From contig JANJGN010000385.1 of the NCBI GenBank assembly GCA_026770705.1, forward strand, positions 1-64,000: a stretch of DNA of 64,000 nt, in the 5' to 3' direction. This stretch comes from Isurus oxyrinchus. Taxonomy: Eukaryota. The position numbers and the translations under genes were made by a program. Shown one piece after another: positions 819 through 63,288 of this stretch. How positions within the stretch are numbered: the first letter of the stretch is position 1; each line of letters opens with the position of its first letter. The notes beneath the pieces were generated by a model. It was not told where the DNA came from, did no database searches, and worked only from the letters and a program-made list of their open reading frames with translations.

Positions 819-2905
819 TTTTTTTATATTCATTTATGGATGTGGGTGGCGCTGTCTAGGCCAGAATTATTGCCCATCCCTAATAGCCCTTGAGAATGTG
901 GTAGTGAGCTGCCGTCTTGAACTGTTGCAGTCCATGTGGGGTAGGTACACCCACAATGCTGTTAGGGAGGGAGTTGCAGGATTTGGACCCAGTGACAGTG
1001 AGGGGAACGGTGATATATTTCCAAGTCAGAATGCTGAGTGACTTGGAGGGTAACTTCAGGTGGTGGTGTTACCATGTATCTGTTGCCCTGTAATTCGAGA
1101 TGGTAGTGGTCGTGTGTTTGAAGGTGCTGCCTAAGGAGTCTTGGTGAGTTCCTGCAGTGCACCGTGTAGATGGTACACACTGCTGCTACTGTTCATCGGT
1201 TGTGCAGAGAGTGGATCTAGCGGGGCTGCTTTGTCCTGAGTGGTGTTGAGTTTACTGAATCTTGTTGGAGCTGCACTCATCCAGGCAAGTGGAGAGTCTT
1301 CCATCACACTCCTGACCTGTGCCTTGAAGGTGGTGGACAGGCTTTGGGGAGTCTGGAGTGAGTTACTCACTGCATGATTCCCAGACTCTGACCTGCTCTT
1401 GTAGCCACAGTGTTTTTATGGCTAGTCCAGTTCAGTTTCTGGTCAATGGTAATCCCCAGGATGTTGATAGTGGGGGATTCAGCAATGGTAATGCCATTGA
1501 ACATCAAGGGGCGATGGTTAGATTCTCTCTTATTGGAGATGGTCATTGCCTGACACTTGTCAGCGCAAGCCTGAATATTGTCCAGGTCTTGCTGCATTTG
1601 GACAAGGGCTGCTTCAGTATCTGAGGAGCCGTGAATGGTGCTGAACATTGTGCAATCGTTAGTGAACATCCACACTTCTGTCCTTATGATGGAAGGAAGG
1701 TCATTGATGAAGCAGCTGAAGATGGTTGGGCCGAGGACACTACCCTGAGGAACTCCTGCAGTGATGTCCTGGAACTGAGATGATTGACCTCCAACAACCA
1801 CAACTATCTTCCTTTGTGCTGGGTATGGCTCCAACCAGCGGAGAGTTTTCCCTCTGTTATGATGTGGTAGATGATGTGTGCCAGGGGGACCAAATCCACA
1901 AGGGAAACTTGGTCACACTATCACAACGGTTTTGCAATTTGTATTTATTATGAGATGTGTGCACTGAATTCAGGAGTAATGTGTCAACCAAGACATTTAG
2001 AGATCTTAAAAATTAAATTTTAATATTTATTTAATATTTAAAGCACACACATAAGGATACGGTTACTATTATAACAAATCCTAAACTTCCTAATTAACCT
2101 TGAAGATGGTGGTCAGGCATTGGGAAGTCTGGAAGTGAGCAGTAAAACTCCTTTTAGGCAATAAACCAAAATAGATTTTAGATTTAAAAACAAAACCAGC
2201 AAGTTAACACAGAACACACTTGAGAGTGGATTTCCAAATGGCTTTCTCAATCTATAGTCACTGAACATAACAGACCTATGGACAAATGCCTGGAGGCTTC
2301 TTCAAGGCTGATTCACACACTCTTGTTAGATTTTACATGGTCCCCAAAATAGCCTTTCATTCTCCTTTGTTGATGTTCCTCTCTCTTTGATATGTAAATT
2401 TCATTGTTCCATATGTCTTTGGAATTATACTTTTCCCATAATATAAAAACTTTCATGTTGCCAATGTTGTCAATAACCTTTGGGGAAAAATAAACACACT
2501 CCTTTGCCTTGCATATCGGTCTCATTGTAAACAGACCAATAGCCCTTTGAAATCCAAACAATCCCGTCACTTATCTAAAAATGCAAATTCCCCTCACACC
2601 TTACATGCTAAGTCAGCCTCCATGTTCACTCACTAGCATTTCAATTACATTTCTACATCTAGCTTCTTTTGATAATCTCAAACTTGCAGTCTACCTGACT
2701 CCAGATGTAATTAAGCCACACAGACAGACCCATCTACACTCACACCCATAAACCTAGTTTACAACAAACCAGGAAAATATTAAGCAAATTATTATACTTT
2801 CGTACCACCCCTGATTCCCATTGATTCCAGTTTTACTCGGGATCCTAGATGCCACACACGGTCAAATGCAGCCTTGATGTCAAAGGCAGTCACTGTCACC
2901 TCACC
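819..2905 (-). mobile_element. 5'-truncated LINE (CR1/L2-like RT plus 3' end) interrupted by a ~950-bp insertion
   Basis: GVPQGSVLGPTIFSCFINDL RT motif in ORF 1367-1834; LINE sequence resumes at about 2808. Confidence 0.8.
1855..2807. mobile_element. Solo-LTR-like insertion inside the LINE
   Basis: Starts TGTTATGA; a related sequence lies inverted at about 22330-22462. Confidence 0.5.
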
Positions 2906-3097
2906 TTGTATTAACAGATGTAAAATTATACATAATTCATAAGCTTCTCACAATCTTTTACAGCATGGAAAAAGGTGCAGCATTCAGAAAGCTCACTCAG
3001 AAACAATAAAAAAAGTTCAGCAACATCATATTTCTGTTCATTACTATTTGGCCATGTTGGCTGCACACACCCCACAGCCCCGCTCCCTGTTTCACAC

Positions 3098-3346
3098 TCA
3101 GTTTTTCTGGAACCTGATCTGTGTGTATTCCGTGTCCTCGCTCCTGTGCACAGTCCTGTCACCGCCGGGCAGCTTTGAAAAGTTGATGTTGGCGTAGAAA
3201 AGCTCGTCGGGTTTGTCGGAGTTCCCATGTCCAACATCGCCTCCCACTGGACCTTCAGAGAGATCCCGGGGAGCTGGGGTCTCCCCCTCGCTAGTTGTGT
3301 CTCTGGTTGTGTTCCGGGGCTCAGTAATCAGCACGTTCTGTTTACC
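3098..3346 (-). CDS. Terminal cytoplasmic exon B (ITIM-like ELFYANINF plus TEYTQI)
   Basis: 249 bp open to stop; both tyrosine motifs match the CD33-related Siglec pattern ELxYAxLxF...TEYxxI. Confidence 0.82.
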   Translation of the reverse strand, partial: GKQNVLITEPRNTTRDTTSEGETPAPRDLSEGPVGGDVGHGNSDKPDELFYANINFSKLPGGDRTVHRSEDTEYTQIRFQKN

Positions 3347-5755
3347 CTACAGAGAAATGGAAACAGAAGACATCCTCACATCATTTACTGGCACTGATAG
3401 GGTTAAATTATTGTGCGGAGTCATTTAATTCTCTCTCTCCTACCGGATAAAAGAAACCACCTATGGCAGTGCAGCACTTCCTCAGTACTGACCCTCCAAC
3501 AGTGCAGCACTCCCTCAGTGCTGACCCTCCAACAGTGCAGCACTCCCTCAGTACTGACCCTCCAACAGTGCAGCACTCCCTCAGTACTGACCCGCTGTCA
3601 GTCCCGCACTCCCTCGGTAATGGCTCTGGTGAGTGACGGCTTGGATGCTGCACACAGGTGCCTGGTGTGAGGCTCAATAACATGAACCTTGTAATCAGAG
3701 AGAGGATGAGAGAGAGGGATAGAGGAGGGATAGAGACAGAGTGTTATGAATCTATTAATGTATGTAATGTAATTGCAAACTGTCTTTTTAAACAGAGGTT
3801 TAGTCTGTGTGTGTGTCTGTGTGTATTTTAATTGGATTAAAGCCAGCCAGTCTGGGTGCTTTGATGTATAGTAGTTTTGAGATGTAAACAAAGAGGTAAA
3901 GTGGTAATTTGCATTTTTAAATAAAACATTCAAAGTCTGAGAGTGAAATCTTAAACCAATCAACGTTTATATTACTAATAAAATTGATACGATGAAAGGG
4001 GATTTATTGTTAGAAGAGATGGAGTTCAAAGGTCCTGATGATACATTGCGAATTTACCTTCAAACAGAAGCCATAAGACTAAGACTTAGGATGAGTAATT
4101 AGACCATTCGGTCCATTTTCCCACCTTCTCCCCTAACCTTTGATCCCCTGACCAATCAGCAGCCTGTCAATCTCCATCTTCTTTACACTCAAGAGCTGGG
4201 TATAACTTGAGCAGTTTTGTTTGTGCAGAGCAGAGGCTTGTAACATCAAAGCAGCTGTAAGCCTACACCTGTCTGCAAAGGAACCAAAGTGAAAGGAAAC
4301 TCATTTGGAATTTGTGAGGTGAAAATGCTTTGCCTGGTGTCTGCTTAAAGACAATGGGTTGTCTTAGAGGAGATTAGTTTGAGAATTTGTTAAAAAGTTA
4401 TGATAATACTAGTTTGTAGCCATGTGCATATGTTTAACTTGTGTAAATTAATAAATGTTTCATGTAGTTTGATATAAAACCATCTTGAGAACTGGTGGTC
4501 TTATTCCTGAATTTAGAGTTGCATCTCAAACCTTCCACTGGGAAATATAGGTTATGACAGTTGTTTAAAGTTTCCTTCTGGGATTTTAAACAACAGCCTT
4601 TACCAGTTGCTGTATCATAACAGAGAGACAGCATGATACTGAACCATTGCTGACTCCACAGGTACAAATCAGTGGGTAACTGGGCAGGGAATCTGTGACA
4701 TGTGTTGTCTACACACTGAGATTGAAGCTTTGGAGTGAGTGTAAACAGCTCCTGTACCTGGTGCTTCACAGACAGTGAACTGGGGGTCAATGCAATGTCA
4801 CTGGTCCCTGAAACTCTCTCCTCCATCGCTGTCTTTCTCCTGCAATAACACAATATCACACTGTTGTTATCATATAGCAGAGAGTCAGTGCAGCACAGAC
4901 ACAGAGCCCACTGTAACCTTACACCAACGACTGGACTGTCTCTTTAAATCACTTCTGCACAAAGCACAGAATCAAGAAGCTTGACACCATCCAGGACAAA
5001 GCAGCCCGATTGATCTACACCCCATCCCCCACATTAAACATTCACTCCCTCCACCATGAACACACAGAGGCAGCAGTGTGTGTACCATCTACAAGATGCA
5101 CTGCAGCAACTCAGCAAGGCTCCTTCAACAGCACCTTCCAAACCCACGACCTCTACCATCTAGAAGGACAAGGGCAGCAGACACATGGGAACACCACCAC
5201 CTGGAAGTTCCCCTCCAAGTCACTCACCATCCTGACTTGGAAATATATCACCGTTCCTTCACTGTCGCTGGGTCAAAATCCTGGAGCTCCCCCCTAACAG
5301 CAGTGTGGGTGTACCTACACCACATGGACCGCAGCGGGTCAAGAAGGCAGCTCACCACACCTTCTCAAGGGCAATTAGGGATGGGCATTAATGCTGACAT
5401 CACCAGTGACAGCCACATTCGATGAAAGAATTTAAAATCTCACAGCTCAATGTATTTACTGTGATCCTGCTGCACACACGCCCTGTCGAAGGAGCCTTTG
5501 TGGTTCCATTGTTAATCGAAGCAGATCAGAGTTACTACAACTACTTGCATTTATATAGCACCTTCAATGTAGCAAAATGTCCCAAGGCTCATCCGGGGAT
5601 TGTTAGTCACATCTTCACCTGACTCTGAGGCACATGAGGAGATATTAGGGACAGGAGACCAACAGCTGAGTCAACAAAGTCAGTTATTAACGGGCATCTT
5701 AAAGGAGGAGCTGGAGATAGGGAATGAGAGACAGACACAGAAAGAAAGAGAGAGA

Positions 5756-5792
<37 letters not shown>

Positions 5793-8700
5793 TGAATCTC
5801 ACTCCCCAATGGCTCAGCATCCAGTCCTCTCTGGAGAAGCATTTCATTCCAAACCACACCAACCGCAGCCCAATTGCATCCCTTCCTCCCTCTCTCCCCC
5901 TCTCCCCCAGTGGGTTGTTTCCTGTTCCCAGGAATCTCAATCCCTACCCCCACACCCACACCTCCTCACTCACTCTCCCCATTTCTCATTCAGTTATGCT
6001 CGAACCTGATCTGTGCGTATTCCGTCTCCTCTTCCCTGTGGACAGAACCATCACCACTGGATATCCTCAAAACTTGGGGATTGGAGTAGAGAAGGGCAAC
6101 GGGATTGTCGGTGTGCCAATGTCCAGCATCGCCTCCCACTGGACCTTCAGAGAGACCCCGGGGAACTGGGGTCTCCCCCTCGCTAGTTGTGTCTCTGGTT
6201 GTGTTCTGGGACTCAGTAATCAGCACGTTCTGTTTACCCTACAGAGAAATGGAAACAGAAGACATCCTCACATCATTTACTGGCACTGATAGGGTTAAAT
6301 TATTGTGCAGCCTCGCTAGTGTCAGTCGGTCTCAATGGGTTTAACTCTCTCTCTCATGTCATCTGAAAGAAACCACCTACGGCAGTGCAGTGCTCCCTCA
6401 GTTCTGATCCCCCCCACTGTGCAGCACATCCTCAGTAGTGACCCTCTGTCAGTCTCGCACTCCCTCAGTGCTGACCCTCCGACAGTGCAGCACTCCCTTA
6501 GTACTGACCCTCCGGCAGTGCAGCACTCCCTCAGTACTGACCCTCTGTCAGTCTCGCACTCCCTCGGTAATGGCTCTGGTGAGTGATGGCTTGGATTCTG
6601 CACTCAAGTGTCTGGTGTGAGGCTCATTGACATCACCCTTGTAATCAGAGAGAGGATGAGAGACAGAAGAGAGAGAGAAAGAAAGGGAGGTAGGGATAGA
6701 GAGAGAGAATGTCATGATGCGATTAATGAATATCATGTTTTGGAAATTATTTTTATTAAAATAGTGGTTTAGTCTGTGGGTGTGTGTGTGTGTGTTTTAA
6801 TTGGATTAAAGCCAGCCAGTCTGGGTACTTTGATGTATCGTAGTTTTGAGATGTAAACAGGGAGGCAAAGAGACAATTTGTATTTTTGAACAGCGCAATG
6901 TCTGGGGGTGAAATCTTAAACCAATCAACGTTTATAATACGAATAAAATTGATACTATGAAAGGGGATTTATTATTAGAAGAAATGGAGTTCAAAGGTCC
7001 TGATGATACAATGAGAACTTACATTCAAAGAGAAGAGCTGGGTATAACTTGAGCAGTTTTGTGTGTGCAGAGCAGAGGCTTGTAACAGCAAAGCAGCTGT
7101 AAGCCTACACCTGTCTGCAAAGGAACCAAAGTGAAAGGAACCTCATTTGGAATTTGTGAGGTGAAAATGCTTTGCCTGGAATCTGCTTAAATTCTATGGG
7201 TTATCTTAGAGGAGATTAGTTAGAGAATTTGTTAAAAAGTTATGATAATACTAGTTTGTAGCCATGTGCATATGTTTAACTTGTGTAAATTAATAAATGT
7301 CTCATGTAGTTTGATATAAAACCATCCCGAGAACTGATGGTCTTATTCCTGAATCTAAAGCTGCATCTCAAACATTCCACTGGGAAATATAGGTTATGAC
7401 AGTTGTTTAAAGTTTCCTTCTGGGATTTTAAACAACAGCCTTTACCAGTTGCTGTGTCATAACAGAGAGGCAGCGTGATACTGAACCATTGCTGACTCCA
7501 CAGGTACAAATCAGTGGGTAACTGGGCTGGGAATCTGGGACATGTGTTGTCTACACACTAAGATTGAAGCTTTGGAGTGAGTGTAAACAGCTCCTGTACC
7601 TGGCGCTTCACAGAGAGTGGACTGGGGGTCAATGCAATGTCACTGGTCCCTGAAACTCTCTCCTCCATCGCTGTCTTTCTCCTGCAATAACACAATATCA
7701 CACTGTGGTTATCATATAGCAGAGAGTCAGTGCAGCACAGACACAGAGCCCACTGTAACCTTACACCAATGACAGGGACTGTCTCTTTAAATCACTTCTG
7801 CACAAAGCACAGAATCAAGAAGCTTGACACCATCCAGGAGAAAGCAGCCCGATTGATCTACACCCCATCCCCCACATTAAACATTCACTCCCTCCACCAT
7901 GAACACACAGTGGAAGCAGTGTGTGTACCATCTACAAGATGCACTGCAGCAACTCAGCAAGGCTCCTTCAACAGCACCTTCCAAACCCACGACCTCTACC
8001 ATCTAGAAGGACAAGGGCAGCAGACACATGGGAACACCACCACCTGGAAGTTGCCCTCCAAGTCACTCACCATCCTGACTTGGAAATATATCACCGTTCC
8101 TTCACTGTCGCTGGGTCAAAATCCTGGAACTCCCTCTCTAACAGCACTGTGGGTGTACCTACACCTCATGGACTGCAGCGGGTCAAGAAGGCAGCTCACT
8201 ACCTCCTTCTCAAGGGGCAATTAGAGATGGGCAATTAATAGCGGCCTCACCAGTGACAGCCACATTCGAAGAAAGAATTAAAAATCTCACAGCTCAGGAG
8301 GAAGCCACTCAGCCCATCGTGCCTGTGCTGGCCCTTTGTAAAAACTGTCTAATTAGTCCTCAACAAATGTTTATATTAAAATCAAGTTAAATCTTCAGAC
8401 TTACTTTCTCACACAGATGAAGATGAAGATTCCAGCCAGGAAAACACTCAACATGATCCCAGCCGTGAACAATCCTACTGTCCATTTACTAGAGTCTCTA
8501 CCTGTAAAAACAGCCATTAATTACTGCACTACAGATTTACAATGATGCTCCGATGTATCTCGAGAAGCGATACACTCACTCAGTGTTTAAATACTCATTC
8601 TCGGGCAATGCTGACATTTATTGTCCATCCCTAGTTTCCCCTTGAGAAGGTGGTGGGGGGTCTTCCTCCTGAACCACTGGTTTGTCCCAAACTGGGAGAC

Positions 8701-11107
8701 CAGTTCAGAGGGCAGGTAAGAGTTAACCATGTTGGTGTCTGAGACTGGAGTCACATCCACATGCTTCCCTCCCTAAAGGGTATGTAGTCTCTACACATGT
8801 AACAACCAACCTCACTGAAATAATCGACTATCAGGTCATTATCACACGGTGGTTTGCGGGATCTTGCTGTGCACAAATCAGTACCTGTGTTTCCTACATT
8901 ACAACAGTGAGCTCACTTCGATAATGCTTCACTGGCTGTTGAATGTTTAGTAATTTCTAAGCAATTTATGAATACAGGTATTGCATTTCAACATGTAACA
9001 TTTATATATAATATTTATCAATTAAAGAATGAGAAGTTCAGCAATTAAAAGGGTTGTTCAGGACAGTTAGAGAGAGAAAGGTCGTCAAGTATGGAGATTG
9101 GAAACGAAGACCTGACAGCCTTGTCCTCACAACCATTGAAGGAGAAACTGAGAGCAAAAACAGAAAGGGAGAGGAAAAATTGGATGTGTGGATAACGTGG
9201 ACTGAGCGAGGACTGAAGAAAACTGGATTAAAAACAACACGATCCCAATGGCTCCACGGAGACCACGGAGACAACAAACAAACAAATGTATCTCCACACT
9301 CACATTCCACAGTGATGGTTATGAACCCCTCCACTGCTCCATGTTCATTCTCTGCCACACACTGATAGTCTCCAGTGTCCCTGGATGTAACGTGAGGAAT
9401 CACCAACCACAGCTCATTGTTGGAACTTGTTCTGTTCATTGGGACATTAAGATGTCGCCACGTCAGGTTAGAAGCTGGGAAGCTCTCGACAGAGCAGATT
9501 ATCACTGCAGAATTCCCCTCAATTATATTGATCGATGAAGCATTAATCATATCAAGAGAGGTAAATGAGAGATTCTGTGGTGCATCTAAAAACAAATCAA
9601 GTGTTTAATGTGAGCAAGCACAATTTACAGCAAGACTCCATGCATCATCTCTCTGTATCTGATGTCTGTATGCAATTCCGGGTACCTTCCCTCCATATAA
9701 CTTCCACTGTCAAATTTATAATGGGCACTGCCTATGTAAACAGTCAAACTGGAGTTACATTCTCCCACCAGTAGAGGTGCTGTCCACTTTTAATGAAAGA
9801 AGCTTTCACATCCTCAGTATTTTGCCAAGGGATTTACGGGAATGAATTGTATTTGATCGATGGAGCACTGAGGGATAAATCTACAATTCTCTGTTCAGGA
9901 GGTTGCTCCATCCAATTCAGGGTCTTGCTGATCTGGAGTTTACCTTCCTTCAACACAGAATCGGAGCTGACACCGAGACTCCAGTGCAGCACTGAGAGAG
10001 GACAGGGAACTCATTTGTGTGTTTGTGTATGTGTTTGTGTTTCTGCACAAGTGAGAGTGTTTGTGTGAGTATGCATGCATGTGTCTGTGTGTGCATGTGT
10101 GTATGTGTTTGAGCATATCTGAGTGTCTCTTTGTGTATATTTCTGTGCATGAGTGAATGTGTGTGCATGTTTATGAGTATGTGTGTGCACGTGTGTGTAT
10201 GTGTGTGTGTGTGTGTGAGTGATGTTGAAGTTTGCAGTAACTCACGTTCCACAGTGATGGTTATGAACCCCTCCACTGCTCCATGTTCATTCTCTGCCAC
10301 ACACTGATAGTCTCCAGTGTCCCTGGATGTAACGTGAGGAATCACCAACCACAGCTCATTGTTGGAATTTGTTCTGTTCATTGGGACATTAAGATGTCGC
10401 CACGTCAGGTTAGAAGCTGGGAAGCTCTCGACAGAGCAGATTATCACTGCAGAATTCCCCTCAATTACATCGATCGATAAAGCGTTAATCACACCAAGAG
10501 AAGTAATTGAGAGATTCCGTGGTGCATCTATAAACATAGAATGATTTTAATATGAGCAAATATAGTGCACAGCAAGACTCCATGCATCATGTCTCTGTAT
10601 CTGATGTCTGAATGCATTTCCAGGTACCTTCTCTCAGGATAAGAACTTATTTCACATTTACAATGGGCACTGCCTATGTAAACTGTCACACTGCAGTTAC
10701 ATTCTCCCACCAGTGGAGGTGTCCATCTAGAATGCAGCAAACTCCCTTACAGATCCTCAAGCTGTCCCCAAAGGCTTCAAAGGCAATGAATTGTATTTGA
10801 TTGATGGAACACTGAGAGGTAAATCTACAATTCACTGTTCAGGAGGTTGCTCCATCCAATTCAGGGTCTTGATGATCTGGAGTTTACCTTCCTTCAACAC
10901 AGATTCGGAGCTGATATCGAGACTCCAGTGCAGCACTGGGAGAGGAGAGGGAACCCACATGTTTTTGTGTGTGTATGTGTGTGTTGGCTTGTGTGTGCAT
11001 GTTTCGGTACAATAAGGATGTGTGTTTGTGTTTGTGTGTGTGCACATGTGTGTCTGTATGGGCATGTGTGTGTGTGCTTGTATGAGTTGAGATTGTGTGT
11101 GTTTCTG

Positions 11108-11146
<39 letters not shown>

Positions 11147-13906
11147 TGTTGAAGTTTGCATTAACTCACATTCCACAGTGATGGTTATGAACCCCTCAAT
11201 TATATTGATCAATGAAGCATTAATCATATCAAGCGAAGTAAATGAGAGATTCTGTGGTGCATCTAAGAACAGTTAAAGATTTCATTGTGAACAAGACTCA
11301 GTACTGAGGGAGTGCTGCAGTGTTGGAGAATCAGTATTCAGGGACTGCTGCAGTGTCAGAGGTGAATTTGTATCAGTTAAAGACTATTGATTTGTTGCTA
11401 AACACAATGCAATTGTGGGATCTTGCAATGTACTAAGTAGAGCTTTCTAGCTAATGTAGAATGAAGGGTGTCCGTTCTTACCTTGCACAGTTAGTACGAG
11501 GGTCTGCTCTGCTGAAACAGATGGATATCTCACTCTGCAGCTGAGTGTGTGTCCATGGTGTTTGAGTGATGGGATCAGGGTCAGAACAGAAGTATAGGTC
11601 AGAGTGACACCATGCTGAGTTACAGTGTTTGAGACTGATCCACGTACGTCAGTGGGAATGTCCCAGGTTAAGACAGGTGCTGCTGTTCCATTGCACATTG
11701 TGTTGAAGGTGCAGCTTACATCCACACGCTTTCCTGCAATAATTTCAGCAGGGAATATCGTGGGTTTATCTGTGAAATCTAACAGACAGAGAATGGATCC
11801 TTTTAGACAAATATAACGTGAAGCATCAGTTCAACTAGAAACCACAGTCCCACAAGAGAAAGCACTTTAACAAGGATGATATCAGATCTGAGAGGTTACA
11901 ATGATCAGGAAAGATTTTCTTGCTCTTTGGCAGTAGTGTTTCTGTCTCTCAGCTTAATACACGTTCACTCCGAGACATGTGAATTGAGAACACTGGATGA
12001 GAGAAGAGGCTGAGACCAGAGATTGGAGTTAAAAGCAGAATACTGCGGATGCTGGAAATCTGAAACAAAAACAAAAATTGCTGGAAAGACTCAGCAGGTC
12101 TGACAGTATCAGTGGAGAGGAAGACAGGGTTAACGTTTCGAGTCTGTATGACTCTTCATCAGACCAGAGGTTTGAGTTCACTGGCTTCTCATTTCCTCAG
12201 TGATCTGGGTTATTTATCACCTTGTGGTTTGTTGGATCTTGCTGTGCACAAACTGCCTGCTGTGTTTTACATCTGTGACTACAATTCAGGAATAATTTCA
12301 TTGGCTGTGAAGGGATTTGGATCCTCCTGAGGTGGTAAATTGCGCTGCAGAAATGCACATCTTTCTTTTATCGATACGTCAGACTTTTAAACAGGACAGG
12401 AGAGATTGATGGGTGTGGATAACCTGATAATACAGTTAATGCTTTTCATCATTGATATTAAAGTGAGTATTGGAGGTTGCTTTAGGACTGAACTGGAAGC
12501 TATCACCAGGTTATTGAGAATCAGACAGTGTGTTATAATAAGCTTTGTTTTATTTTAATATGTGAACGTCACAGTTTGTGTTATTTCCCATTGAGAGTTG
12601 AATGTGAATTGTTGAGTAATTATAACACAGCACTTACCAGAAACATGAAGCTGGGTTACAGGGTAATAGTTATAGCTCGGACCATTGTCAAATTCTATTC
12701 TGAAAAAATAAGGTCCTGCATCTTCCCGTGTGATGTTGTTTATAATCAGGGAACAGTCGCCATCTTTCAGGTCTCCAGACAGCCGGGTCCGATGGCGGAA
12801 CCGTGGTAACTCGTGACTGTGATCCTTGGAGTGAAAGGCAATAGGAGCCCAGGGAATCTGTTTCTCATTATTAAACCAGACTCCACCTCGCGGTTGATTT
12901 TCCAAATGTGATGGATAACTGTAATGACATGGAATCTGTACACACGAACCTTCCTGCGCTGTCACCTCTCGTGGAGTGTCACCTTTCCACTCTTGTGACA
13001 GTCCAACTGGGGAGAGAAATATCAATATTTAACTCCGAATGGTTTGTAGATCCACTAGACTCGATATCCACCCCCTCCATCTCTGGAGCACAGTGGCTGC
13101 AGTGAGGACCATCTACAGGACACACATGGAACTCCCCAAGGTTTCATAATGGATGGAAGAGAATCCTGGACACAGGAGTGGACAAGTTCATTCTACATTG
13201 GCTCATGGTCCTCAGGACCCTGTTTAGTGAAGCCAGTCTTCCACCCAACGCAGTGTCTACAAGACACACAGGGAAACTGTGTAAATATCTCATCTCTCTA
13301 AACTGACTGCTTTGGCTTCGGTTTAACTTTCAGTTATTTTACTTCCTTATTGTGTTGCTATGGTGAAACTGTGCAGGAAGTGCGAGGGCTGGACTCTCTG
13401 TCTATTCTGACTGCAGCTGTGATGTAGTCGTGGTGGTTTTCAGTAAAATGAAACCCTCTGAGCTCCTCCATCGCCGAGGTTTAGGGAGTGAATTCCAGAG
13501 CTCAGGCCCCAGGCAGCTGAAGGCCCAGCCGCCAGTATTGGAGTGATGGGAATCGAGGGATGGTCAAGAGGCCGGAATTGGAGTAACACAGAGATCTGGG
13601 ACGTTGGTTGGGAGAGTTGCAGGAGGTTACAGAGATAAGGACGCAGTGTGAGGCAATGGATGCATTTGAACAAAGAGATGTGAATTTTAAGTTTGAGATG
13701 TTGTAGGACCAGGAGTCAGATAGTTTAGGGGTGATGGGTGAATGGGACTTGGTGTGAGTTTGTACACTGGCTCACTGTTGAATCGGTTCCCAATCACAGC
13801 TCCATAAGAATGTTCTTTTACAAAGACTATTCACCATAAATCTGTCCGAGCTGACGATGATATTACCTTGGAGAAGTGACAGGAGGAAGTAAGATTTCCC
13901 GATCAT
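3098..13906 (-). CDS. Gene 1: inhibitory-type Siglec-like receptor (spliced; about 622 aa with mini-exon and one tail cassette)
   Basis: Exons on minus strand: leader 13867-13906, V-set 12638-13006, C2 11482-11778, mini-exon 11170-11262, C2 10246-10527, C2 9304-9585, TM 8405-8501, then tail A (7600-7681, 6560-6637, 5990-6238) or tail B (4758-4839, 3610-3687, 3098-3346). All have AG/GT ends and compatible phases (1,1,1,1,1,1,2,0,0). Confidence 0.85.
3465..3618. repeat. Short 33-bp minisatellite (duplicate at about 6380-6568)
   Basis: Same unit, abutting cytoplasmic exon 2. Confidence 0.85.
3610..3687 (-). CDS. Cytoplasmic exon 2, cassette B
   Basis: Duplicate of 6560-6637, [26 protein letters not shown]. 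Confidence 0.5.
3742..4622. mobile_element. Solo-LTR-like element (copy in cassette B)
   Basis: TGTTATGA...TCATAACA termini, near-TSD cagag/gagag; duplicated at 6710-7464. Confidence 0.55.
4758..4839 (-). CDS. Cytoplasmic exon 1, cassette B
   Basis: Near-identical duplicate of 7600-7681 with intact splice sites. Confidence 0.7.
4970..5430 (+). mobile_element. LINE 3'-end fragment
   Basis: Reverse-complement homology to the LINE at about 830-1330; duplicated at about 7812-8280. Confidence 0.65.
5745..5789. repeat. (GA)n microsatellite
   Basis: Read directly. Confidence 0.9.
5990..6238 (-). CDS. Terminal cytoplasmic exon A (LLYSNP, TEYAQI motifs)
   Basis: ctctgtag|GGT AAA CAG...; open to stop; distal TxYxxI motif like the TEYSEI motif of CD33-related Siglecs. 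Confidence 0.8.
   Translation of the reverse strand, partial: GKQNVLITESQNTTRDTTSEGETPVPRGLSEGPVGGDAGHWHTDNPVALLYSNPQVLRISSGDGSVHREEETEYAQIRFEHN
6560..6637 (-). CDS. Cytoplasmic exon 2, cassette A
   Basis: 78 bp, phase 0-0, [26 protein letters not shown]; weak donor gtgcga. Confidence 0.55.
6710..7464. mobile_element. Solo-LTR-like element (copy in cassette A)
   Basis: TGTCATGA...TCATAACA; paralog of 3742-4622. Confidence 0.55.
7600..7681 (-). CDS. Cytoplasmic exon 1, cassette A
   Basis: ttgcag|G AGA AAG...CAG|gtacag; [27 protein letters not shown]; phase 2-0 matches the TM exon. Confidence 0.78.
7812..8280 (+). mobile_element. LINE 3'-end fragment
   Basis: [15 protein letters not shown]-terminal LINE-like peptide plus 3' UTR. 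Confidence 0.65.
8405..8501 (-). CDS. Gene 1 transmembrane exon (uncharged)
   Basis: tttttacag|...|gtaagt; encodes [33 protein letters not shown]; phase 1 in, phase 2 out. Confidence 0.88.
9304..9585 (-). CDS. Gene 1 C2-set Ig exon (copy c)
   Basis: 282 bp, near-identical to 10246-10527, canonical splice sites. Confidence 0.88.
10246..10527 (-). CDS. Gene 1 C2-set Ig exon (copy b)
   Basis: 282 bp, APRNLS...[15 protein letters not shown]...[14 protein letters not shown]; tag| and |gtgagt sites. Confidence 0.88.
10960..11145. repeat. (GT)n-rich microsatellite (paralog at about 10015-10220)
   Basis: Read directly. Confidence 0.9.
11170..11262 (-). CDS. Gene 1 internally deleted Ig mini-exon (31 codons)
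   Basis: Copy of the 282-bp C2 exon lacking 189 bp between two GAGGGG repeats; splice sites intact, frame kept. Confidence 0.55.
11482..11778 (-). CDS. Gene 1 first C2-set Ig exon
   Basis: 297 bp, DFTDKPTIF...[19 protein letters not shown]...LSCRV; carries the extra Cys typical of Siglec domain 2. Confidence 0.9.
12128..12165 (-). ncRNA. Minimal hammerhead-ribozyme-like motif in a Penelope-like fragment (gene 1 intron, sense)
   Basis: GGT-CTGATGA-A-GAGTC(ATACA)GACTC-GAAA-CGTT-A-ACC. Confidence 0.45.
12638..13006 (-). CDS. Gene 1 Siglec-type V-set Ig exon
   Basis: 369 bp, cag|...|gtaagt. Motifs [18 protein letters not shown] and [11 protein letters not shown] give the Siglec B-E disulfide pattern, no F-strand Cys, and the essential Arg. 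Confidence 0.93.
13867..13906 (-). CDS. Gene 1 signal-peptide exon [13 protein letters not shown]
   Basis: ATG plus 13 codons plus phase-1 donor CAAG|gtaata; joins the V exon as ...LLQ-VGLSQEW. Homologous exon recurs at four other places in the window. Confidence 0.85.
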
Positions 13907-14497: not shown

Positions 14498-14714
14498 GGT
14501 AATGAGTGAGAAGTTCGAGGATGTTTTGTGCTCTCAGCAAAACGTTTACCATGTGTGATCTGTCAGCTCATATTTGGGCAGCTGTAGTCATCAAGCTTCT
14601 CCATTGGCTCCGTGGGATTAGACCCCTCCCCCTCATCTCAGAGGCTGAAGCGCAGGCGATAGAATTCCCAATACAGGTCTCTGGCCGTATGATACATGTT
14701 GACAATCCCTGATA

Positions 14715-16370
14715 TCATTACTGAAGGAGTGCTGCACTGTCAGGGGTATAGTACTGAGGGAGCGCTGCACTGTGTGAGGGTCAGTACTGAGTGAGTGCTG
14801 CACTATCAGAAGGTCAGTAATGTGGGATTGCTGCACTGTCAGAGGGCCAGTAGTGAAGGATTGCTGCAATGTCGGAGGGTCAGTACTGAGGGAGTGCTGC
14901 ACTGTCAGAGGGACAGTAATGTGGGAGTGCTGCACTGTCAGAGTGTCAGTAATGTGGGAGTGCTGCATTGTCAGAGGGTCAGTAATGTGGGAGTTCTGCA
15001 CTGGAAGAGGGTCATTAATAAGGGAGTACTTCACTATCAGGAGTATAGTACTGAGGGAGTGCTGCACTGTGGGAGGGTCAGTACTGAGCGAGTGCTGCAC
15101 TGTTAGTGGGGTCAGTACTGAGGGTCTGCTGCACTATCAGAGGGTCAGTAATGTGAGAGTGCTGCACTGTCAGAGGGCCAGTAGTGAAGGAATGCTGCAA
15201 TGTCGGAGGATCAGTACTGAGGGAGTGCTGCACTGTCAGAGGGACAGTAATGTGGGAGTGCTGCACTGTCAGAGGGTCAGTAATGTGGGAGTGCTGCACT
15301 GTCAGAGGGACAGTAATGTGGGAGTGCTGCACTGGAAGAGGGTCCTTAATGAGGGAGTGCTGCACTGTCAGAGGATCAGTAATGAGGGAGTGCTGAACTG
15401 TCAGCGGGTCTGTACTGAGTGAGATTTGCACAGTCGGAGGGTCAGTATTGAGGGGGTGCCGGACTGTGGGAGGGTTAGTACTGAGGTAGAGAGGAGTGTG
15501 AGAAGATATCCTTTCATGGCAAAGTTTAACTGGAATTTATTTAAACAGAGATTCTAGTACTGTGTGTTATTGCTAAAGAAAGGATATGAGGAACTAAGTC
15601 TTGTTCCCCTCAGCCTAAAAATAATTTTCACCGATTTCAATGATTTAGCATTGAAACCTCCCTCTTTGGGCACCAGTCTTGATTTAAACAACTCGCACAG
15701 CACTGTGGGAGGGTGAGTACTGAGAGTGTGCTGCACTGTGGGAGGGTGAGTACTGAGGGAGTGCTGCACTGTGGGAGGGTGAGTACTGAGGGAGTGCTGC
15801 ACTTTGGGAGAGTGAGTACTGATGGAGTGCTGCACTGTGGGAGGGTGAGTACTGAGGGTGTGCTGCACTGTGGGACGGTGAGTACTGAGGGAGTGCTGCA
15901 CTGTGGGAGGGTGAGTACTGAGGGAGTACTGCTCTGTGGGAGTGAGAGTACTGAGGGATTGCTGCACTGTGGGAGGGTGAGTACTGAGGGAGTACTGCAC
16001 TGTGGGAGGGAGAGTACTGAGGGAGTGCTGCATTGTGGGGGGGAGAATCCTGAGGGACAGCTGCATAGTGGGAGTTTGAATACTGATGGAATGCTGCCCT
16101 GTCAGAGGGTCTGTACCTAGGGAGTGCTGAACTGTTGGAAAGTCATTAGTGATGGAGGGGTACAGTATCAGAGGGTCAGTGTTCAGGGATTGTTGCACTG
16201 TCAGAGTGTCAGCCATGAGGGAGTGCTGCACGGTCAGAAGGTCAATGATGACGGGGTGCTGCACTTGAAAAGGGTCAATAATGAGGTAGTGCAGCACTGT
16301 CAGAGGGACAGTAATGAGGGAGCGCTGCACTGACGGAGGGTCAGCACTGAGGAAACGCTGCACTGTCAGT
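14715..16370. repeat. 33-bp minisatellite arrays with a ~210-bp unique spacer
   Basis: Unit approximately GTACTGAGGGAGTGCTGCACTGTCAGAGGGTCA; 11-aa periodic ORFs in several frames. Confidence 0.92.
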
Positions 16371-17084
16371 TCTGAGTGTGGTGTGCACTGTCCTAAGTGC
16401 ATTCTAGGCACTGCCCAAGATTCCGCCTGATGTCTGTGTAACAACAACATCATGTACACATCGAGAATATTTCTCACTGTGTCTGTGCAGCAGGACAGTT
16501 TTGGAATGGCACCACCACTGGCAGGAGTGTGAAACTACAATGTGACATGTTTACATGGGAAATTTCTATTATAAGGATGGGCACAGGAATTTATATAATA
16601 GAGAAAATGTGACAACAAGAAGCTTTTCTTTGAGGCAAGAATCTGGCAGCAAAATAAGAATTTTAATCCATAAGTATCTACAGAACAGGCTGAGCATTTT
16701 AATCACTTGTGTTAATCAATGTAATTTTATTCATAACCCAAATGCTTCTTACAATCTATCGCAGCATGAAAAAGGTGCAGCATTCAGAAAGCACATTCCA
16801 ATCAGAGAACAGAGTTTAGCAACGTCACATTTCTGTTCATTCCTATTCAACCATGTTGGCTGCACACAGCCAGACAATGCCGTGGTTATGATGTGTCCAC
16901 ACAGCAGGACTGGGGAGCACCAGGTATAAGGAAAAGTTTCAGCTTGCTGAGGAGAAGAAGGAGAATCTCTCGTTGCAGGTTTCTCTCCGTACATTAAGAA
17001 GCAGGCATGTCGATGTTTTATTGCACTCTGTCTGCTGATGGGAGTCCGCTTGGAAATTGCTGTTTGTGCTGATGGAAAGAATAA

Positions 17085-35409: not shown

Positions 35410-35627
35410 GGTAATCAGTGAGAAGATTGAGGATGTTTTGTGCTCTCAGCAAAACGTTTACCATGTGATGATCTGTCAGCTCATATTTGGGCAGCTGTAG
35501 TCATCAAGTTTCTCCATTGGCTCCATGGGATTAGACCCCTCCCCCTCACCTCAGAGGCTGAAGCGCAGGCGATAGACTTCCCAATACAGGTCTCTGGCCG
35601 TATGATACATGTTGACAATCCCTGATA

Positions 35628-37115
35628 TCATTACTGAAGGAGTGCTGCACTGTCAGGGGTATAGTACTGAGGGAGTGCTGCACTGTGTGAGGGTCAGTAC
35701 TGAGTGAGTGCTGCACTATCAGAAGGTCAGTAATGTGGGATTGCTGCACTGTCAGAGGGCCAGTCGTGAAGTATTGCTGCAATGTCGGAGGGTCAGTACT
35801 GAGGGAGTGCTGCACTGTCAGAGGGACAGTAATGTGGGAGTGCTGCACTGTCAGTGTGTCAGTAATGTGGGAGTGCTGCATTGTCAGAGGGTCAGTAATG
35901 TGGGAGTTCTGCACTGGAAGAGGGTCATTAATAAGGGAGTGCTTCACTGTCAGGAGTATAGTACTGAGGGAGTGCTGCACTGTGGGAGGGTCAGTACTGA
36001 GCGAGTGCTGCACTGTTAGTGGGGTCAGTACTGAGGGTCTGCTGCACTATCAAAGGGTCAGTAATGTGGGAGTGCTGCACTGTCAGAGGGCCAGTAGTGA
36101 AGGAATGCTGCAATGTCGGAGGATCAGTACTGAGGGAGTGCTGCACTGTCAGAGGGACAGTAATGTAGGAGTGCTGCACTGTCAGAGGGTCAGTAATGTG
36201 GCAGTGCTGCACTGTCAGAGGGACAGTAATGTGGGTGTGTTGCACTGGAAGAGGGTCCTTAATGAGGGAGTGATGCACTGTCAGTGGGTCAGTAATGTGG
36301 GAGTGCTGCACTGTCGGAGGCTCTGTACTGAGTGAGATTTGCACAGTCAGAGGGTCAGTATTGAGGGGGTGCCGGACTGTGGGAGGGTTACTACTGAGGT
36401 AGAGAGGAGTGTGAGAAGATATCCTTTCATGGCAAAGTTTAACTGGAATTTATTTAAACAGAGATTCTAGTACTGTGTGTTATTGCTAAAGAAAGGATAT
36501 GAGGAACTAAGTCTAGTTCCCCTCAGCCTAAAAATAATGTTCTCCGATTTCAATGATTTAGCATTGAAACCTCCCTCTTTGGGCATCAGTCTTGATTTAA
36601 ACAACTCGCACAGCACTGTGGGAGGGTGAGTACTGAGGATGTGCTGCACTGTGGGAGGGTGAGTACTGAGGGAGTGCTGCACTGTGGGAGGGTGAGTACT
36701 GAGGGAGTGCTGCACTGTGGGAGGGTGAGTACTGAGGGAGTGCTGCACTGTGGGAGTGAGAGTACTGAGGGAGTGCTGCACTGTGGGGGGGAGAATCCTG
36801 AGGGACAGCTGCATAGTGGGAGTTTGAATACTGAGGGAATGCTGCCCTGTCAGAGTGTCTGTACCTAGGGAGTGCTGAACTGTCGGAAAGTCATTAGTGA
36901 TGGAGGGATACAGTATCAGAGGGTCAGTATTCAGGGAGTGTTGCACTGTCAGATTGTCAGCCATGAGGGAATCCTGCACGGTCAGAAGGTCAATGATGAC
37001 GGGGTGAAGCACTTGAAAAGGGTCAATAATGAGGTAGTGCAGCACTGTCAGAGAGACAGTAATGAGGGAGCGCTGAACTGACGGAGGGTCAGCACTGAGG
37101 AAACGCTGCACTGTC
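35628..37115. repeat. 33-bp minisatellite arrays (duplicate of 14715-16370)
   Basis: Same unit and spacer. Confidence 0.92.
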
Positions 37116-37832
37116 AGTTCTGAGTGTGGTCTGCACTGCCCTAAGTGCATTCTAGGCACTGCCCAAGATTCCGCCTGATGTCCGTGTAACAACAACATCA
37201 TGTACACGTCGAGAATATTTCTCACTGTGTCTGTGCAGCAAGACAGCTTTGGAATGGCACCACCACTGGCAGGAGTGTGCAACTACAATGTGACATGTTT
37301 ACATTGGAAGTTTCTATAATAAGGATGGGCACAGGAATTTATATAATAGAGAAAATGTGACAACAAGAAGCTTTTCTTTGAGGCAAGAATTTGGCAGCAA
37401 AATAAGAATTTTAATCTATAAATATTTACAGAACAGGCTGAGCATTTTAATCACTTGTGTTAATCAATGTAATTTTATTCATAACCCAAATGCTTCTTAC
37501 AATCTATCGCAGCATGAAAAAGGTGCAGCATTCAGAAAGCACATTCCAATCAGAGAACAGAGTTTAGCAACGTCACATTTCTGTTCATTCCTATTCGACC
37601 ATGTTGGCTGCACACAGCCAGACAATGCCGTGGTTATGATGTGTCCACACAGCAGGACTGGGGAGCACCAGGTATAAGGAAAAGTTTCAGCTTGCTGAGG
37701 AGAAGAAGGACAATCTCTCGTTCCAGGTTTCTCTCCGTACATTAAGAAGCAGGCATGCCGATGTTTCATTGCACTCTGTCTGCTGATGGGAGTCCGCTTG
37801 GAAATTGCTGTTTGTGCTGATGGAAAGAATAA

Positions 37833-47010: not shown

Positions 47011-47234
47011 AGATCAAAGTGACAGAGCAGCTGATGTTTAGAGTTTTTTGAAGCTGTTAACCCTTTGCGTTCTGGACTTGTGATGATATTTCTGCTCAAA
47101 AGTGGAAAGTCATTGACCAGGAATTTCTCCTGTGGGTCACTGGGTTTCGAACCCTCTCTCGCTCTCTGAGTGGATGGTCACCTGTTCGAGATTCATTTGG
47201 CAAAATTCAGGCTGGCAAAGCAGATCAGCACTCA

Positions 47235-47945
47235 GTGTCAGGACTGAGAGTCCTGCACAATCGGAGGGTCAGTACTGAGAGAGAGCTGCACTGTTGGAGG
47301 GTGAGTATTGAGGGAGTGCTGCATAGTCAGAGGGTCAGTACTGAGGGAGTGCTGCAAGGTCAGAGGGTCAGTGCTAAGAGAGAGCTGCACTGTCAGAGGG
47401 TCAGTACAGAGGGACTGCTGCACAATCGGAGCGTCAGTACTGAGGGAGTGCTGCACTGTCAGAGGGTCAGTACTGAGGGAGTACTGCACTGTTGGAGGGT
47501 CAGTACTGAGGGAGTGTTGCACTGTGAGAGGGTCAGTACAGAGGTAGAGCTGCACTGTCAGAGGGTCAGTACTGAGGGAGTGCTGCACTGTCAGAGGGTC
47601 AGTACTGAGACAGAGCTGCACTGTCAGATGGGCAGTACTGAGGGAGTGTTGCACTGTGGGAGGGTCAGTACTGAGAGAGTGCTGCACAGTCGGAGGGTCA
47701 CTACTGAGGGAGTGCTGCACAATCGGAGGGTCAGTACTGAGGGAGTGCTGCACTGTCGGAGGGTCAGTACTGAGGGAGAGCTGCACTTTCGGAGGGTCAG
47801 TACTGAGGGAATGCTGCACTGTTGGAGGGTCAGTACCGAGGGAATGCTGCACCATCGGAGTGTCAGTACTGAGGGAGTGCTGCACTGCTGGAGGGTCAGT
47901 ACCGAGGGACTGCTGCACTGTCACAGGTTCAGTACCGAGGGAATG
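47235..47945. repeat. 33-bp minisatellite (about 21 units)
   Basis: Same unit. Confidence 0.92.
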
Positions 47946-48279
47946 TAAACCGAACCCATTGGTCAACTAAAATAGTGACAAGGGTTGAATAAACTGGTGA
48001 TGAGGTGAAAAACAAGGAAGAAAAAGCAAGGAATGAAAGCAAGCAAATTGAAATCTGGCCGTGCCTCGCACAGTGATTATAAATATAATTTCCATCCTAA
48101 TAACCGAAGCAGTCCCCTCGAAGAATGCTGCAGTTTGGAAGAGTTGATCCTTTCGACCCAACGGTGGGCGATTGGTCTCATTATGGTGAACTTCTCGCGT
48201 TCTTTTTCCAAGTGAAAGACATTGATGGGGAGGAGAAGAGGCGAGCGACCCTCTTATCCACGTGTGGGAGTAAGATTTA

Positions 48280-59945: not shown

Positions 59946-60659
59946 CTTATTCTTTCCATCAGCACAAACAGCAATTTCCAAGCGGACTCCCATCAGCAGA
60001 CAGAGTGCAATGAAACATCGGCATGCCTGCTTCTTAATGTACGGAGAGAAACCTGGAACGAGAGATTCTCCTTCTTCTCCTCAGCAAGCTGAAACTTTTC
60101 CTTATACCTGGTGCTCCCCAGTCCTGCTGTGTGGACACATCATAACCACGGCATTGTCTGGCTGTGTGCAGCCAACATGGTCGAATAGGAATGAACAGAA
60201 ATGTGACATTGCTAAACTCTGTTCTCTGATTGGAATGTGCTTTCTGAATGCTGCACCTTTTTCATGCTGCGATAGATTGTAAGAAGCATTTGGGTTATGA
60301 ATAAAATTACATTGATTAACACAAGTGATTAAAATGCTCAGCCTTTTCTGTAGATACTTATGGATGAAAATTCTTATTTTCCTGCCAGATTCTTGGCTCA
60401 AAGACATTATTTCATGTTGTCACTTTTTCCAGTCAGATGAATTCCCGTGGCCATCTTTATAATGGAAATTTCCAATGTAAACATGTCACATTGTAGCTGC
60501 ACACTCCTGCCAGTGGTGGTGCCATTCCAAAACTGTCTTGCTGCACCAGCACAGTGAGAATTATTCTCGACATGTACATGATGTTGTTGTTACTCAGACA
60601 TCAGGCGGAATCTTGGGCTGTGCCTAGAATGCACTTAGGACATTGCAGACCACGCACAG

Positions 60660-62480: not shown

Positions 62481-62697
62481 TAACAGGGGTCGTTGAAATG
62501 TATCATACGGCCCGAGACCTGTATTGGGGACTCTATCGCCTGAGTTTCAGCCTCTGTGGTGAGGGGGAGGAGTCTAATCCCACGGAGCCAATGGAGAAGC
62601 TTCATGACTACAGCTGCCCAAATATGAGCTGACAGATCACACATGGTAAACGTTTTGCTGAGAGCACAAAACATCCTCGATCTTCTCACTGATTACC

Positions 62698-62717: not shown

Positions 62718-63288
62718 CAGTGACACATCCACCCTTTCTAATTAAACACACAGAGGGAGCAGCACAGGAAGAGGTCATTCAGCTCAAGCAGAGCGTGTGG
62801 GCAGTTCCTCCCCAGGCGAGCAGTCGGACAGGTCCTGGGTAAGTAACGGAACGATTGGAATTCACTTCCACCACCAACACCGTCCTTTGTTGATGTTGTG
62901 ACTTTATAAAGACAGATTCCAATGATTGATGCCTTTGAAAGATTTCTACTGGTTATTGAGATCTGGGTGTGAGACTCAAGTCTGTTGTACAGAACATCTT
63001 TCTAGCTCAAGGGATGAGGGAAGTGCAGAGACATGAGCTTTGGGACGTCTTGAGGTGGTGAAAGGTGCTATAGAAATGCAAATCCTTTAATGTTTTTCTT
63101 TCTTAAAGTCTTGTAACTCTCTGCAGAGCACCTATCATCCCACAGAGAATCAAATTAGTCTGTAAAGACATTGTCCAAAAACAGTTCTGATCTCTTGAGA
63201 GCTGTCGGACAAGAGGTGAGGTCTCATTAACTCCTTTCTCTTTCAGAGTTTGAGAGTCAGAAGCTTATGAAGTATCTGGGAGTGGACA

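What the first reader, a model, noticed from the sequence alone, without database searches (positions are those of the whole stretch)
3098..8296. Tandemly duplicated three-exon cytoplasmic cassette gives one receptor two alternative signalling tails
Seen: after a single TM exon, a ~2.9-kb unit (cyt1, cyt2, terminal exon, with shared LTR-like and LINE pieces) occurs twice with intact splice sites and open frames; upper breakpoint at about 8296/5449. The terminal exons are near-identical in the first half, then diverge without indels over the Tyr motifs. Tail B has ELFYANINF plus TEYTQI; tail A has ALLYSNPQV (Pro at Y+3 breaks the ITIM consensus) plus TEYAQI. Inference: alternative terminal-exon choice could switch between an ITIM+ITSM-type and an ITSM-only output.
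Basis: partly seen in the sequence, partly recalled or inferred. Interest (0 to 1): 0.75.

Follow-up and report, generated by a model that had tools for sequence, protein, structure and literature searches.

The report
Shark Siglec with stitched double tail
A shark immune receptor gene of the Siglec type carries its two-exon signalling tail twice, and a hidden splice site inside the first "last exon" likely stitches both copies into one long tail with four tyrosine docking sites, rather than mainly offering two either-or tails.

Summary
The duplication, breakpoints and motifs are real, but the cassette has two exons, not three: 0 of 60 related shark proteins carry a 'cyt2' segment, and RNA-type contigs join cyt1 directly to the terminal exon. 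The gene is a Siglec-like receptor of a lamniform shark (inferred from homologs). Terminal exon A holds an internal GT donor (6006) in the same phase as the second cyt1 acceptor (4839). That exact 1166-nt skip appears in three RNA-type runs (two samples, two organisms) and not in the DNA-type run laid. It is also built into 18 of 60 white/basking shark protein models. The main product is therefore likely one 216-residue tail: YxNP + ITSM + ITIM + ITSM; shorter B-only and A-only forms are likely side products. All 10 distinct internal modules are the ITIM-less A type. A and B types also exist as single tails on separate paralogs, so they predate this tandem. The ITIM loss probably came from a five-codon compensating frameshift. 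The junction evidence is family-level, not locus-specific, and signalling is untested. No paper describing this was found. Verdict: new variant of a known kind, moderate interest.

The parts
13867..13906 (-). Leader exon (ATG, 13 codons + 1 nt)
   Evidence: same leader in homologs
12638..13006 (-). V-set Ig exon, Siglec type, with F-strand YFFR arginine
   Evidence: Pfam V-set E 7e-13, Ig_CD22 E 3e-9; best PDB hits Siglec-5, MAG, Siglec-7
11482..11778 (-). First C2-set Ig exon
   Evidence: Pfam C2-set_2; splice sites
11170..11262 (-). 93-nt mini-exon candidate: a C2 exon copy with an internal deletion, in frame
   Evidence: use not tested
10246..10527 (-). Second Ig exon
   Evidence: Pfam Ig_3/I-set
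9304..9585 (-). Third Ig exon (96% identical to the second)
8405..8501 (-). Single transmembrane exon, no charged residue in the helix, ends in phase 2
5957..8296 (-). Cassette A (LINE-like piece, cyt1A, LTR-like piece, minisatellite, terminal exon A)
7600..7681 (-). cyt1A exon, 82 nt, phase 2 to 0
6560..6637 (-). Rejected 'cyt2' candidate A (open frame, weak sites, no support)
5990..6238 (-). Terminal exon A to its own stop: LLYSNPQV (no ITIM) and TEYAQI (ITSM consensus)
6000..6008 (-). Internal splice donor CAG|GTTCGA; last exonic base 6006, 233 nt into the exon, phase 2
   Evidence: junction to 4839 in X1, X2, X5
4840..6005 (-). 1166-nt GT-AG intron of the stitched form
   Evidence: table 5
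5450..5989 (-). Spacer, inferred 3' UTR of exon A
   Evidence: unique to A; contigs cover it
5455..5460 (-). AGTAAA, 5 nt above the breakpoint; reads AATAAA in related contigs (C5459T on +)
   Evidence: table 3, 48
3066..5449 (-). Cassette B
4758..4839 (-). cyt1B exon, 82 nt, phase 2 to 0, 3 differences from cyt1A
3098..3346 (-). Terminal exon B to stop: LFYANINF (ITIM-like) and TEYTQI (ITSM consensus)
2026..2031 (-). First AATAAA below exon B, 1067 nt after the stop (candidate poly(A) signal; another at 1944-1949)
   Evidence: use not tested

Best explanation
This Siglec-like shark receptor gene has a two-exon tail cassette duplicated in tandem, and its main product is likely one long tail in which exon A is spliced from an internal donor into the second cassette, giving four tyrosine motifs in the order YxNP, ITSM, ITIM, ITSM. 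Shown: the donor at 6006 is in phase with the cyt1B acceptor, the joined frame is open (670 aa, 216-aa tail), and this junction exists in RNA-type contigs and protein models of close relatives. Inferred: exon A works as a composite exon whose internal donor competes with a poly(A) signal left 5 nt above the breakpoint (weakened to AGTAAA here); skipping gives B-only tails, and donor-to-exon-B splicing gives a short A-only tail. Inferred: the tandem arose by unequal recombination in an array of paralogs that already had A-type and B-type tails, with later gene conversion homogenising the upper parts. Inferred and untested: B recruits SHP-1/SHP-2 like CD33-related Siglecs; A, whose ITIM was probably broken by a five-codon compensating frameshift, adds an ITSM plus a YxNP adaptor site.
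For: Phase match and open frame. Joint 4838/6005, 1166 nt, CT..AC on + (GT..AG on -), in X1 (depth 5054), X2 (500) and X5 (29), not in X14. 18 of 60 fetched proteins carry an internal module spliced at this very codon; they come from 8 white shark and 2 basking shark gene models by accession/LOC. All 10 distinct internal modules are A type, 0 are B type. The window's A groups 98/91 with two white shark modules that are both internal. In the white shark gene with the same A+B layout, 3 of 6 isoforms are stitched and 0 of 6 end at A's stop. A and B types split 100/99 in the whole-module tree and 99/99 in the second-half tree but are mixed in the first-half tree. All 7 non-lamniform proteins with a scored tail have one B-type module. 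Frameshift: only blocks starting at codons 53-56 of 70 fit frame -1 of exon B better than frame 0 (3 vs 8 changes for PQVFR).
Against: The junction rests on one contig per run with 25-29 letters on the short side, laid at 85% likeness, so it may come from paralogs; the runs hold only 0.15-0.26 of the words of exon A, 'RNA' is the tool's guess, X1 and X2 are one sample, and X14 was read to about 86% with some joints uncounted. Contigs cannot rank isoforms. The donor matches only 6 of 9 consensus positions (as does the cyt1 donor), and exon B has a similar site (5 of 9). Exon A keeps an intact stop, and 11 distinct A-type modules are last in their proteins. I could not see the RNA support behind the NCBI models, and some white shark models may be alleles of one gene. 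With the window's own exon A, a second shifted-frame match (codons 41-45) also appears, so short shifted matches can be chance.
Confidence: 0.7

Rival explanations
1. One reading: A and B are mainly mutually exclusive last exons; A ends at its own stop and poly(A) site, and the choice switches ITSM-only against ITIM+ITSM output.
For: Both exons have intact acceptors and stops. A poly(A)-like hexamer lies 530 nt below A's stop and is canonical AATAAA in related contigs. B-only isoforms X4 and X5 are modelled in the white shark gene. Single A-type tails exist.
Against: The A-to-cyt1 junction is in RNA-type contigs; 0 of 6 isoforms of the matching white shark gene end at A's stop; the window's hexamer is AGTAAA and the breakpoint falls 5 nt below it.
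Confidence: 0.15
2. The stitched form is splicing noise from a neutral by-product of unequal crossing-over in a fast-turning gene array; the working protein is the B-only (or one single-tail) form.
For: The window is full of partial and broken copies of the gene. dN/dS between the diverged halves is about 1 (0.371/0.378). The donor is weak.
Against: Stitched tails occur in two genera in three layouts (A+B, A+A, A+A+), always with A inside and both tyrosines kept; the junction contig is deep in X1.
Confidence: 0.12
3. The tandem is an assembly artefact (two alleles or paralogs joined).
For: Upper parts are 96-97% identical; no genome was held to check depth.
Against: Identity is a mosaic from 74% to 97%; an independent 419-nt contig in X2 runs across the breakpoint, 5362-5720 (table 8); the same layout is modelled in two other species' assemblies.
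Confidence: 0.03

Closest known systems
CD33-related Siglecs (Siglec-5, -7, -9, CD33)
   Same: V-set with YFFR arginine, C2-type domains, uncharged TM, and in module B a proximal ITIM-like plus distal ITSM pair, the arrangement described for CD33rSiglecs (10.1101/2022.01.04.474948, passages).
   Different: The motif pair is repeated in one tail, and the inner copy has lost its ITIM; orthology with mammalian CD33rSiglecs was not tested.
White shark gene XP_041037215-221 and relatives; basking shark LOC144671602 (automatic NCBI models)
   Same: Same exon layout and same stitched junction; this locus is a member of that lamniform subfamily.
   Different: They are named only 'MAG-like', 'Siglec-like' or 'uncharacterized'; the window pairs an A subtype that sits in A+A genes in the white shark models (P0003, P0031) with a B module.
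Mouse Ly108/SLAMF6 tail isoforms
   Same: Alternative 3' exons change the number of ITSMs in an Ig-family receptor tail (PMC10003074, passages).
   Different: Ly108-1/-2 come from mutually exclusive exons; here a whole cassette is duplicated and the best-supported form is additive.
Composite terminal exons (internal 5' splice site competing with a downstream poly(A) site)
   Same: Exon A has an internal donor and a poly(A)-like signal in the following intron; the concept is in PMC4227790 (passages). The IgM secreted/membrane switch is the textbook case (recalled).
   Different: Here the composite state seems to have been created by duplication giving a latent donor in a former last exon an in-frame acceptor; regulation is unknown.
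APP pY682-ENP motif
   Same: A phosphorylated YxNP that docks SH2 proteins such as Grb2, Crk, Nck and Abl (PMC2723102, abstract and passages).
   Different: Only a four-letter resemblance; binding to the shark YSNP/YANP motif is untested.

Membership tests
Siglec family | N-terminal V-set Ig domain of Siglec type | tested here: met
   Pfam V-set and Ig_CD22 above cut-off; the top 17 of 43 PDB matches are Siglecs, MAG, CD33 or sialoadhesin
Siglec family | Conserved arginine for sialic acid binding (YxFR; PMC13358205 passages) | tested here: met
   YFFR aligns with YFFR of Siglec-5
Siglec family | Cysteine pattern: two Cys early in the V-set, one before the F strand, none in it (pattern recalled) | tested here: met
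   Three Cys align with Siglec-5; the first C2 exon has an extra Cys
Siglec family | Type I membrane protein with C2-type Ig domains | tested here: met
   Leader, three Ig exons and one TM exon splice into an open frame
Siglec family | Arginine-dependent sialic acid binding | not testable with these tools
   Needs a glycan binding assay
CD33-related Siglecs | Proximal ITIM, (I/L/V/S)xYxx(L/V) (PMC2832619) | tested here: inconclusive
   B is LxYxxI: Ile at +3 fits the wider consensus (recalled) but not this strict one; A is LxYxxP: not met
CD33-related Siglecs | Distal ITSM, TxYxx(V/I) (PMC2832619) | tested here: met
   TEYAQI and TEYTQI
CD33-related Siglecs | Orthology or synteny with the mammalian CD33r cluster | not tested
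   No genome held; no tree with mammalian Siglecs was built
Mutually exclusive terminal exons (Ly108 type) | Each last exon ends transcripts and they are not joined | tested here: not met
   The exons are joined in RNA-type contigs and protein models; termination at A itself was not shown or excluded
Composite terminal exon | Used internal 5' splice site | tested here: met
   at family level
Composite terminal exon | Used poly(A) site downstream in the same intron | tested here: inconclusive
   AGTAAA in the window, AATAAA in related contigs; contigs cannot show ends

The most novel reading that the evidence does not exclude
Lamniform sharks evolved a modular tail-stacking system for their Siglecs: a frameshift turned the ITIM of one tail lineage into a YxNP adaptor site, and a latent donor in that exon lets it be chained one, two or more times ahead of a terminal module, so copy number and splicing tune each receptor between inhibitory and mixed signalling without a separate activating partner.
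Probability: 0.3. Interest if true: 0.7.

Novelty: new variant of a known kind. Interest (0 to 1): 0.48.

Why it matters
It shows a simple route by which an immune receptor multiplies and mixes its signalling motifs: duplicate the last two exons, and a latent in-phase donor turns the old last exon into an internal one. It also points to a lamniform-restricted Siglec expansion with an ITIM-less tail lineage, in a group whose inhibitory receptors are barely described, and gives four defined phosphotyrosine peptides and one junction that can be tested directly. The ingredients (Siglecs, multi-tyrosine tails, alternative tails, composite exons) are all known, which caps the surprise.

Tried and rejected
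Whole genome: none held, so no depth, synteny or paralog DNA. 'cyt2' exon: rejected. Pfam finds no family for either terminal exon. Positive selection between the two exons: not supported; Nei-Gojobori dN/dS is 0.208/0.147 overall, 0.371/0.378 for codons 41-82, on few sites. Isoform abundance from contig depth: not usable; every contig reading through 5996 in X1, X2 and X14 differs from the window there, so use of this locus's own A stop could not be judged. BLOSUM scan of the window's own exon A against shifted exon B gave 10 of 75 blocks where a shifted frame equalled or beat frame 0, in two patches; the family-level test left one patch. Earlier findings: nothing by sequence or by words. Paper searches for shark Siglecs or duplicated tails listed no paper on this; the library lacks most subscription journals, and supplementary file 9 of PMC8455134, which lists Siglec gene families, was not read. 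No structure prediction or complex job was run: the tail is likely disordered and binding would depend on phosphorylation.
Full report
WHAT IS THERE. The minus strand holds an intact type I membrane protein gene: leader 13906-13867, V-set 13006-12638, Ig exons 11778-11482, 10527-10246 and 9585-9304, TM 8501-8405. The V domain scores with Pfam V-set and Ig_CD22, and its best solved relatives are Siglec-5, MAG and Siglec-7, with the YFFR arginine aligned. All 19 hits to terminal exon B are shark proteins, 15 of them from Carcharodon and Cetorhinus at up to 93% identity, so the window is inferred to be from a lamniform shark.

THE DUPLICATION. Self-BLAST pairs 4191-5449 with 7033-8296 (95.7%) and 3066-4070 with 5957-7035 (80.2%). 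Segment identity is a mosaic: LINE-like piece 96.8%, cyt1 and flanks 96.6%, upper LTR-like part 95.6%, lower part 86.5%, acceptor plus first half of the terminal exon 97.3%, second half 74.2%. In the 249-nt terminal exons 5 of 42 differences lie in the first 120 nt and 37 in the rest; 0 of 2000 shuffles match this step. The upper breakpoint cuts a dispersed repeat that is whole at 8271-8360 and truncated at 5449. A 419-nt contig of run X2 crosses 5449 with 12 differences, so the junction is not peculiar to this assembly.

TWO EXONS, NOT THREE. cyt1 (82 nt) enters in phase 2 and leaves in phase 0; the terminal exon starts in phase 0. No exon is needed between them. The only in-frame candidate (78 nt, 6637-6560) has poor splice sites. 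Of 60 proteins fetched, 0 contain its peptide and 45 show the direct join. Contigs in X1 and X2 show the direct join with one to three letters replaced (table 5c).

THE MISSED DONOR. 233 nt into terminal exon A, just after TEYAQI, lies CAG|GTTCGA, in phase 2 like the TM donor. Joining it to the cyt1B acceptor gives an open frame of 670 aa with a 216-aa tail and tyrosines at tail positions 80, 103, 185 and 208. Four of the first 19 hits scored about twice as high as single matches because they hold the module twice, joined at exactly this codon. Over all 60 proteins, 47 have a scored tail and 18 have an internal module; these belong to 8 white shark gene models (6 A+B, 2 A+A) and 2 basking shark models (A+A, and an odd model with up to two internal A modules that runs on into a downstream gene). 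Some white shark models may be alleles; three share one contig length and have separate accessions. The white shark gene XP_041037215-221 has six isoform models: three stitched, two B-only, and one where the donor meets the next terminal acceptor out of frame and stops after six residues; none ends at A's stop. The window allows the same short form. I could not see what RNA support these models have.

INDEPENDENT RNA-TYPE EVIDENCE. Of 21 runs listed for exon A I laid four on 4650-6360 at 85% likeness. The best-supported non-repeat joint skips 1166 nt between 4838 and 6005 with CT..AC ends, which is the predicted GT-AG intron. It is present in X1, X2 (one sample, organism A) and X5 (organism B), one contig each, and absent from X14. 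Limits: 'RNA' is a guess, the short side is 25-29 letters, the runs hold 0.15-0.26 of the exon's words, X14 was not fully counted, and paralogs map here. It shows that the junction is transcribed in the family, not its share at this locus.

THE POLY(A) SIDE. Between exon A and cyt1B the minus strand has no AATAAA or ATTAAA, only AGTAAA at 5460-5455 and TATAAA at 5555-5550. At 5459 all depth in X14 (19 contigs) and X2 (3 contigs), and 689 of 1545 in X1, carries the letter that makes AATAAA; X5 (depth 3) does not. So the spacer is probably the old 3' UTR of an A-type gene, cut 5 nt below its signal. This would weaken 3' end formation and favour the donor (inference); it does not exclude transcripts ending there.

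WHERE A AND B COME FROM. A tree of 38 distinct module sequences (36 from P0001-P0055 plus the window's two; P0031's second module was missed by the pattern) separates 20 A-type from 18 B-type rows (100/99); the second halves give the same split (99/99) while first halves mix (bootstraps not fully settled). The window's A groups with internal modules of P0003 and P0031 (98/91); its B lies among terminal B modules. Both types also occur as single tails. All 7 scored tails from Mustelus, Rhincodon, Hemiscyllium and Chiloscyllium are single and B-like; 2 further non-lamniform proteins had no scored tail. So B is likely ancestral, A is lamniform in this sample, and the tandem likely joined pre-existing paralog tails, with conversion explaining the near-identical first halves. 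All 10 distinct internal modules are A type.

HOW THE ITIM WAS LOST. A-type modules read PQV(F/L)(R/K) where B-type read INFSK or similar. Exon B read one base earlier gives HQLFK. Against the A majority peptide, only blocks starting at codons 53-56 of 70 fit a shifted frame better than the normal one (3 vs 8 base changes for PQVFR; median shifted distance 8), and the best DNA alignment of the window's two exons has one gap in each. A compensating frameshift is my reading (about 0.7); paralog DNA would settle it.

HOW IT LIKELY WORKS. After sialic acid engagement and phosphorylation (inferred from family knowledge), module B would recruit SHP-1/SHP-2 as Siglec-5 does through its ITIM and ITSM (10.1101/2022.01.04.474948, passages). 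By the consensus in PMC2832619 (passages) both distal motifs are ITSMs, A's proximal motif is no ITIM, and B's has Ile where that strict consensus wants Leu/Val. A's YxNP resembles the APP motif that docks Grb2, Crk, Nck and Abl SH2 domains (PMC2723102): a lead only. The expected switch is thus long (four tyrosines) against short, with an ITIM-less short form as a further option.

NOVELTY. Siglecs with the arginine (PMC13358205, passages), tail isoforms (PMC10003074, passages) and composite terminal exons (PMC4227790, passages) are known, and the stitched proteins already sit, uncommented, in automatic annotations. Seven searches listed no paper on shark Siglec tails; PMC8455134 mentions Siglecs once as gnathostome families and PMC13262535 lists the Siglec family under Tetrapoda in one table; both seen as passages only. 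The library is incomplete. Verdict: new variant of a known kind, interest 0.48.

Noticed in passing
window 18976-63334: Four more Siglec 5' units (V at 21839-21471, 33916-33548, 45463-45095 and inverted at 55409-55783, each with a C2 exon) and a lone inverted leader at 63235, but no second TM or tail exon in the window. The inverted V has an in-frame stop; three second-Ig copies (19128, 32068, 57263) are cut at the 5' end. They may be pseudogenes, secreted forms or alternative 5' ends.
   Followed up: partly
window V exons 13006, 21839, 33916, 45463, 55409: V copies are near-identical in framework but differ strongly in the stretch after the first Cys pair and before the G strand, as expected for a diversifying ligand-binding face.
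   Followed up: no
window 11170-11262: In-frame 93-nt mini-exon with intact splice sites, made by an internal deletion of an Ig exon copy.
   Followed up: partly
P0007, P0008, P0011 (Cetorhinus): The same TM and tail is modelled behind two quite different ectodomains (a different V-set family in P0008/P0011), suggesting tail sharing or shuffling between Siglec subfamilies.
   Followed up: no
P0014 cluster, P0057, P0058, P0013: Models with two to seven tandem Siglec V domains in lamniform and Mustelus proteins; some may be fused models.
   Followed up: no
window 3742-4622 and about 6710-7463: LTR-like element inside both cassettes; copy B starts TGTTATGA and ends TCATAACA and has a 123-nt insert absent from copy A.
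   Followed up: partly
window 14600-16600, 35600-37300, 47200-47950, 60400-62500: Long arrays of a 33-bp minisatellite, also present in short form in both cassettes.
   Followed up: no
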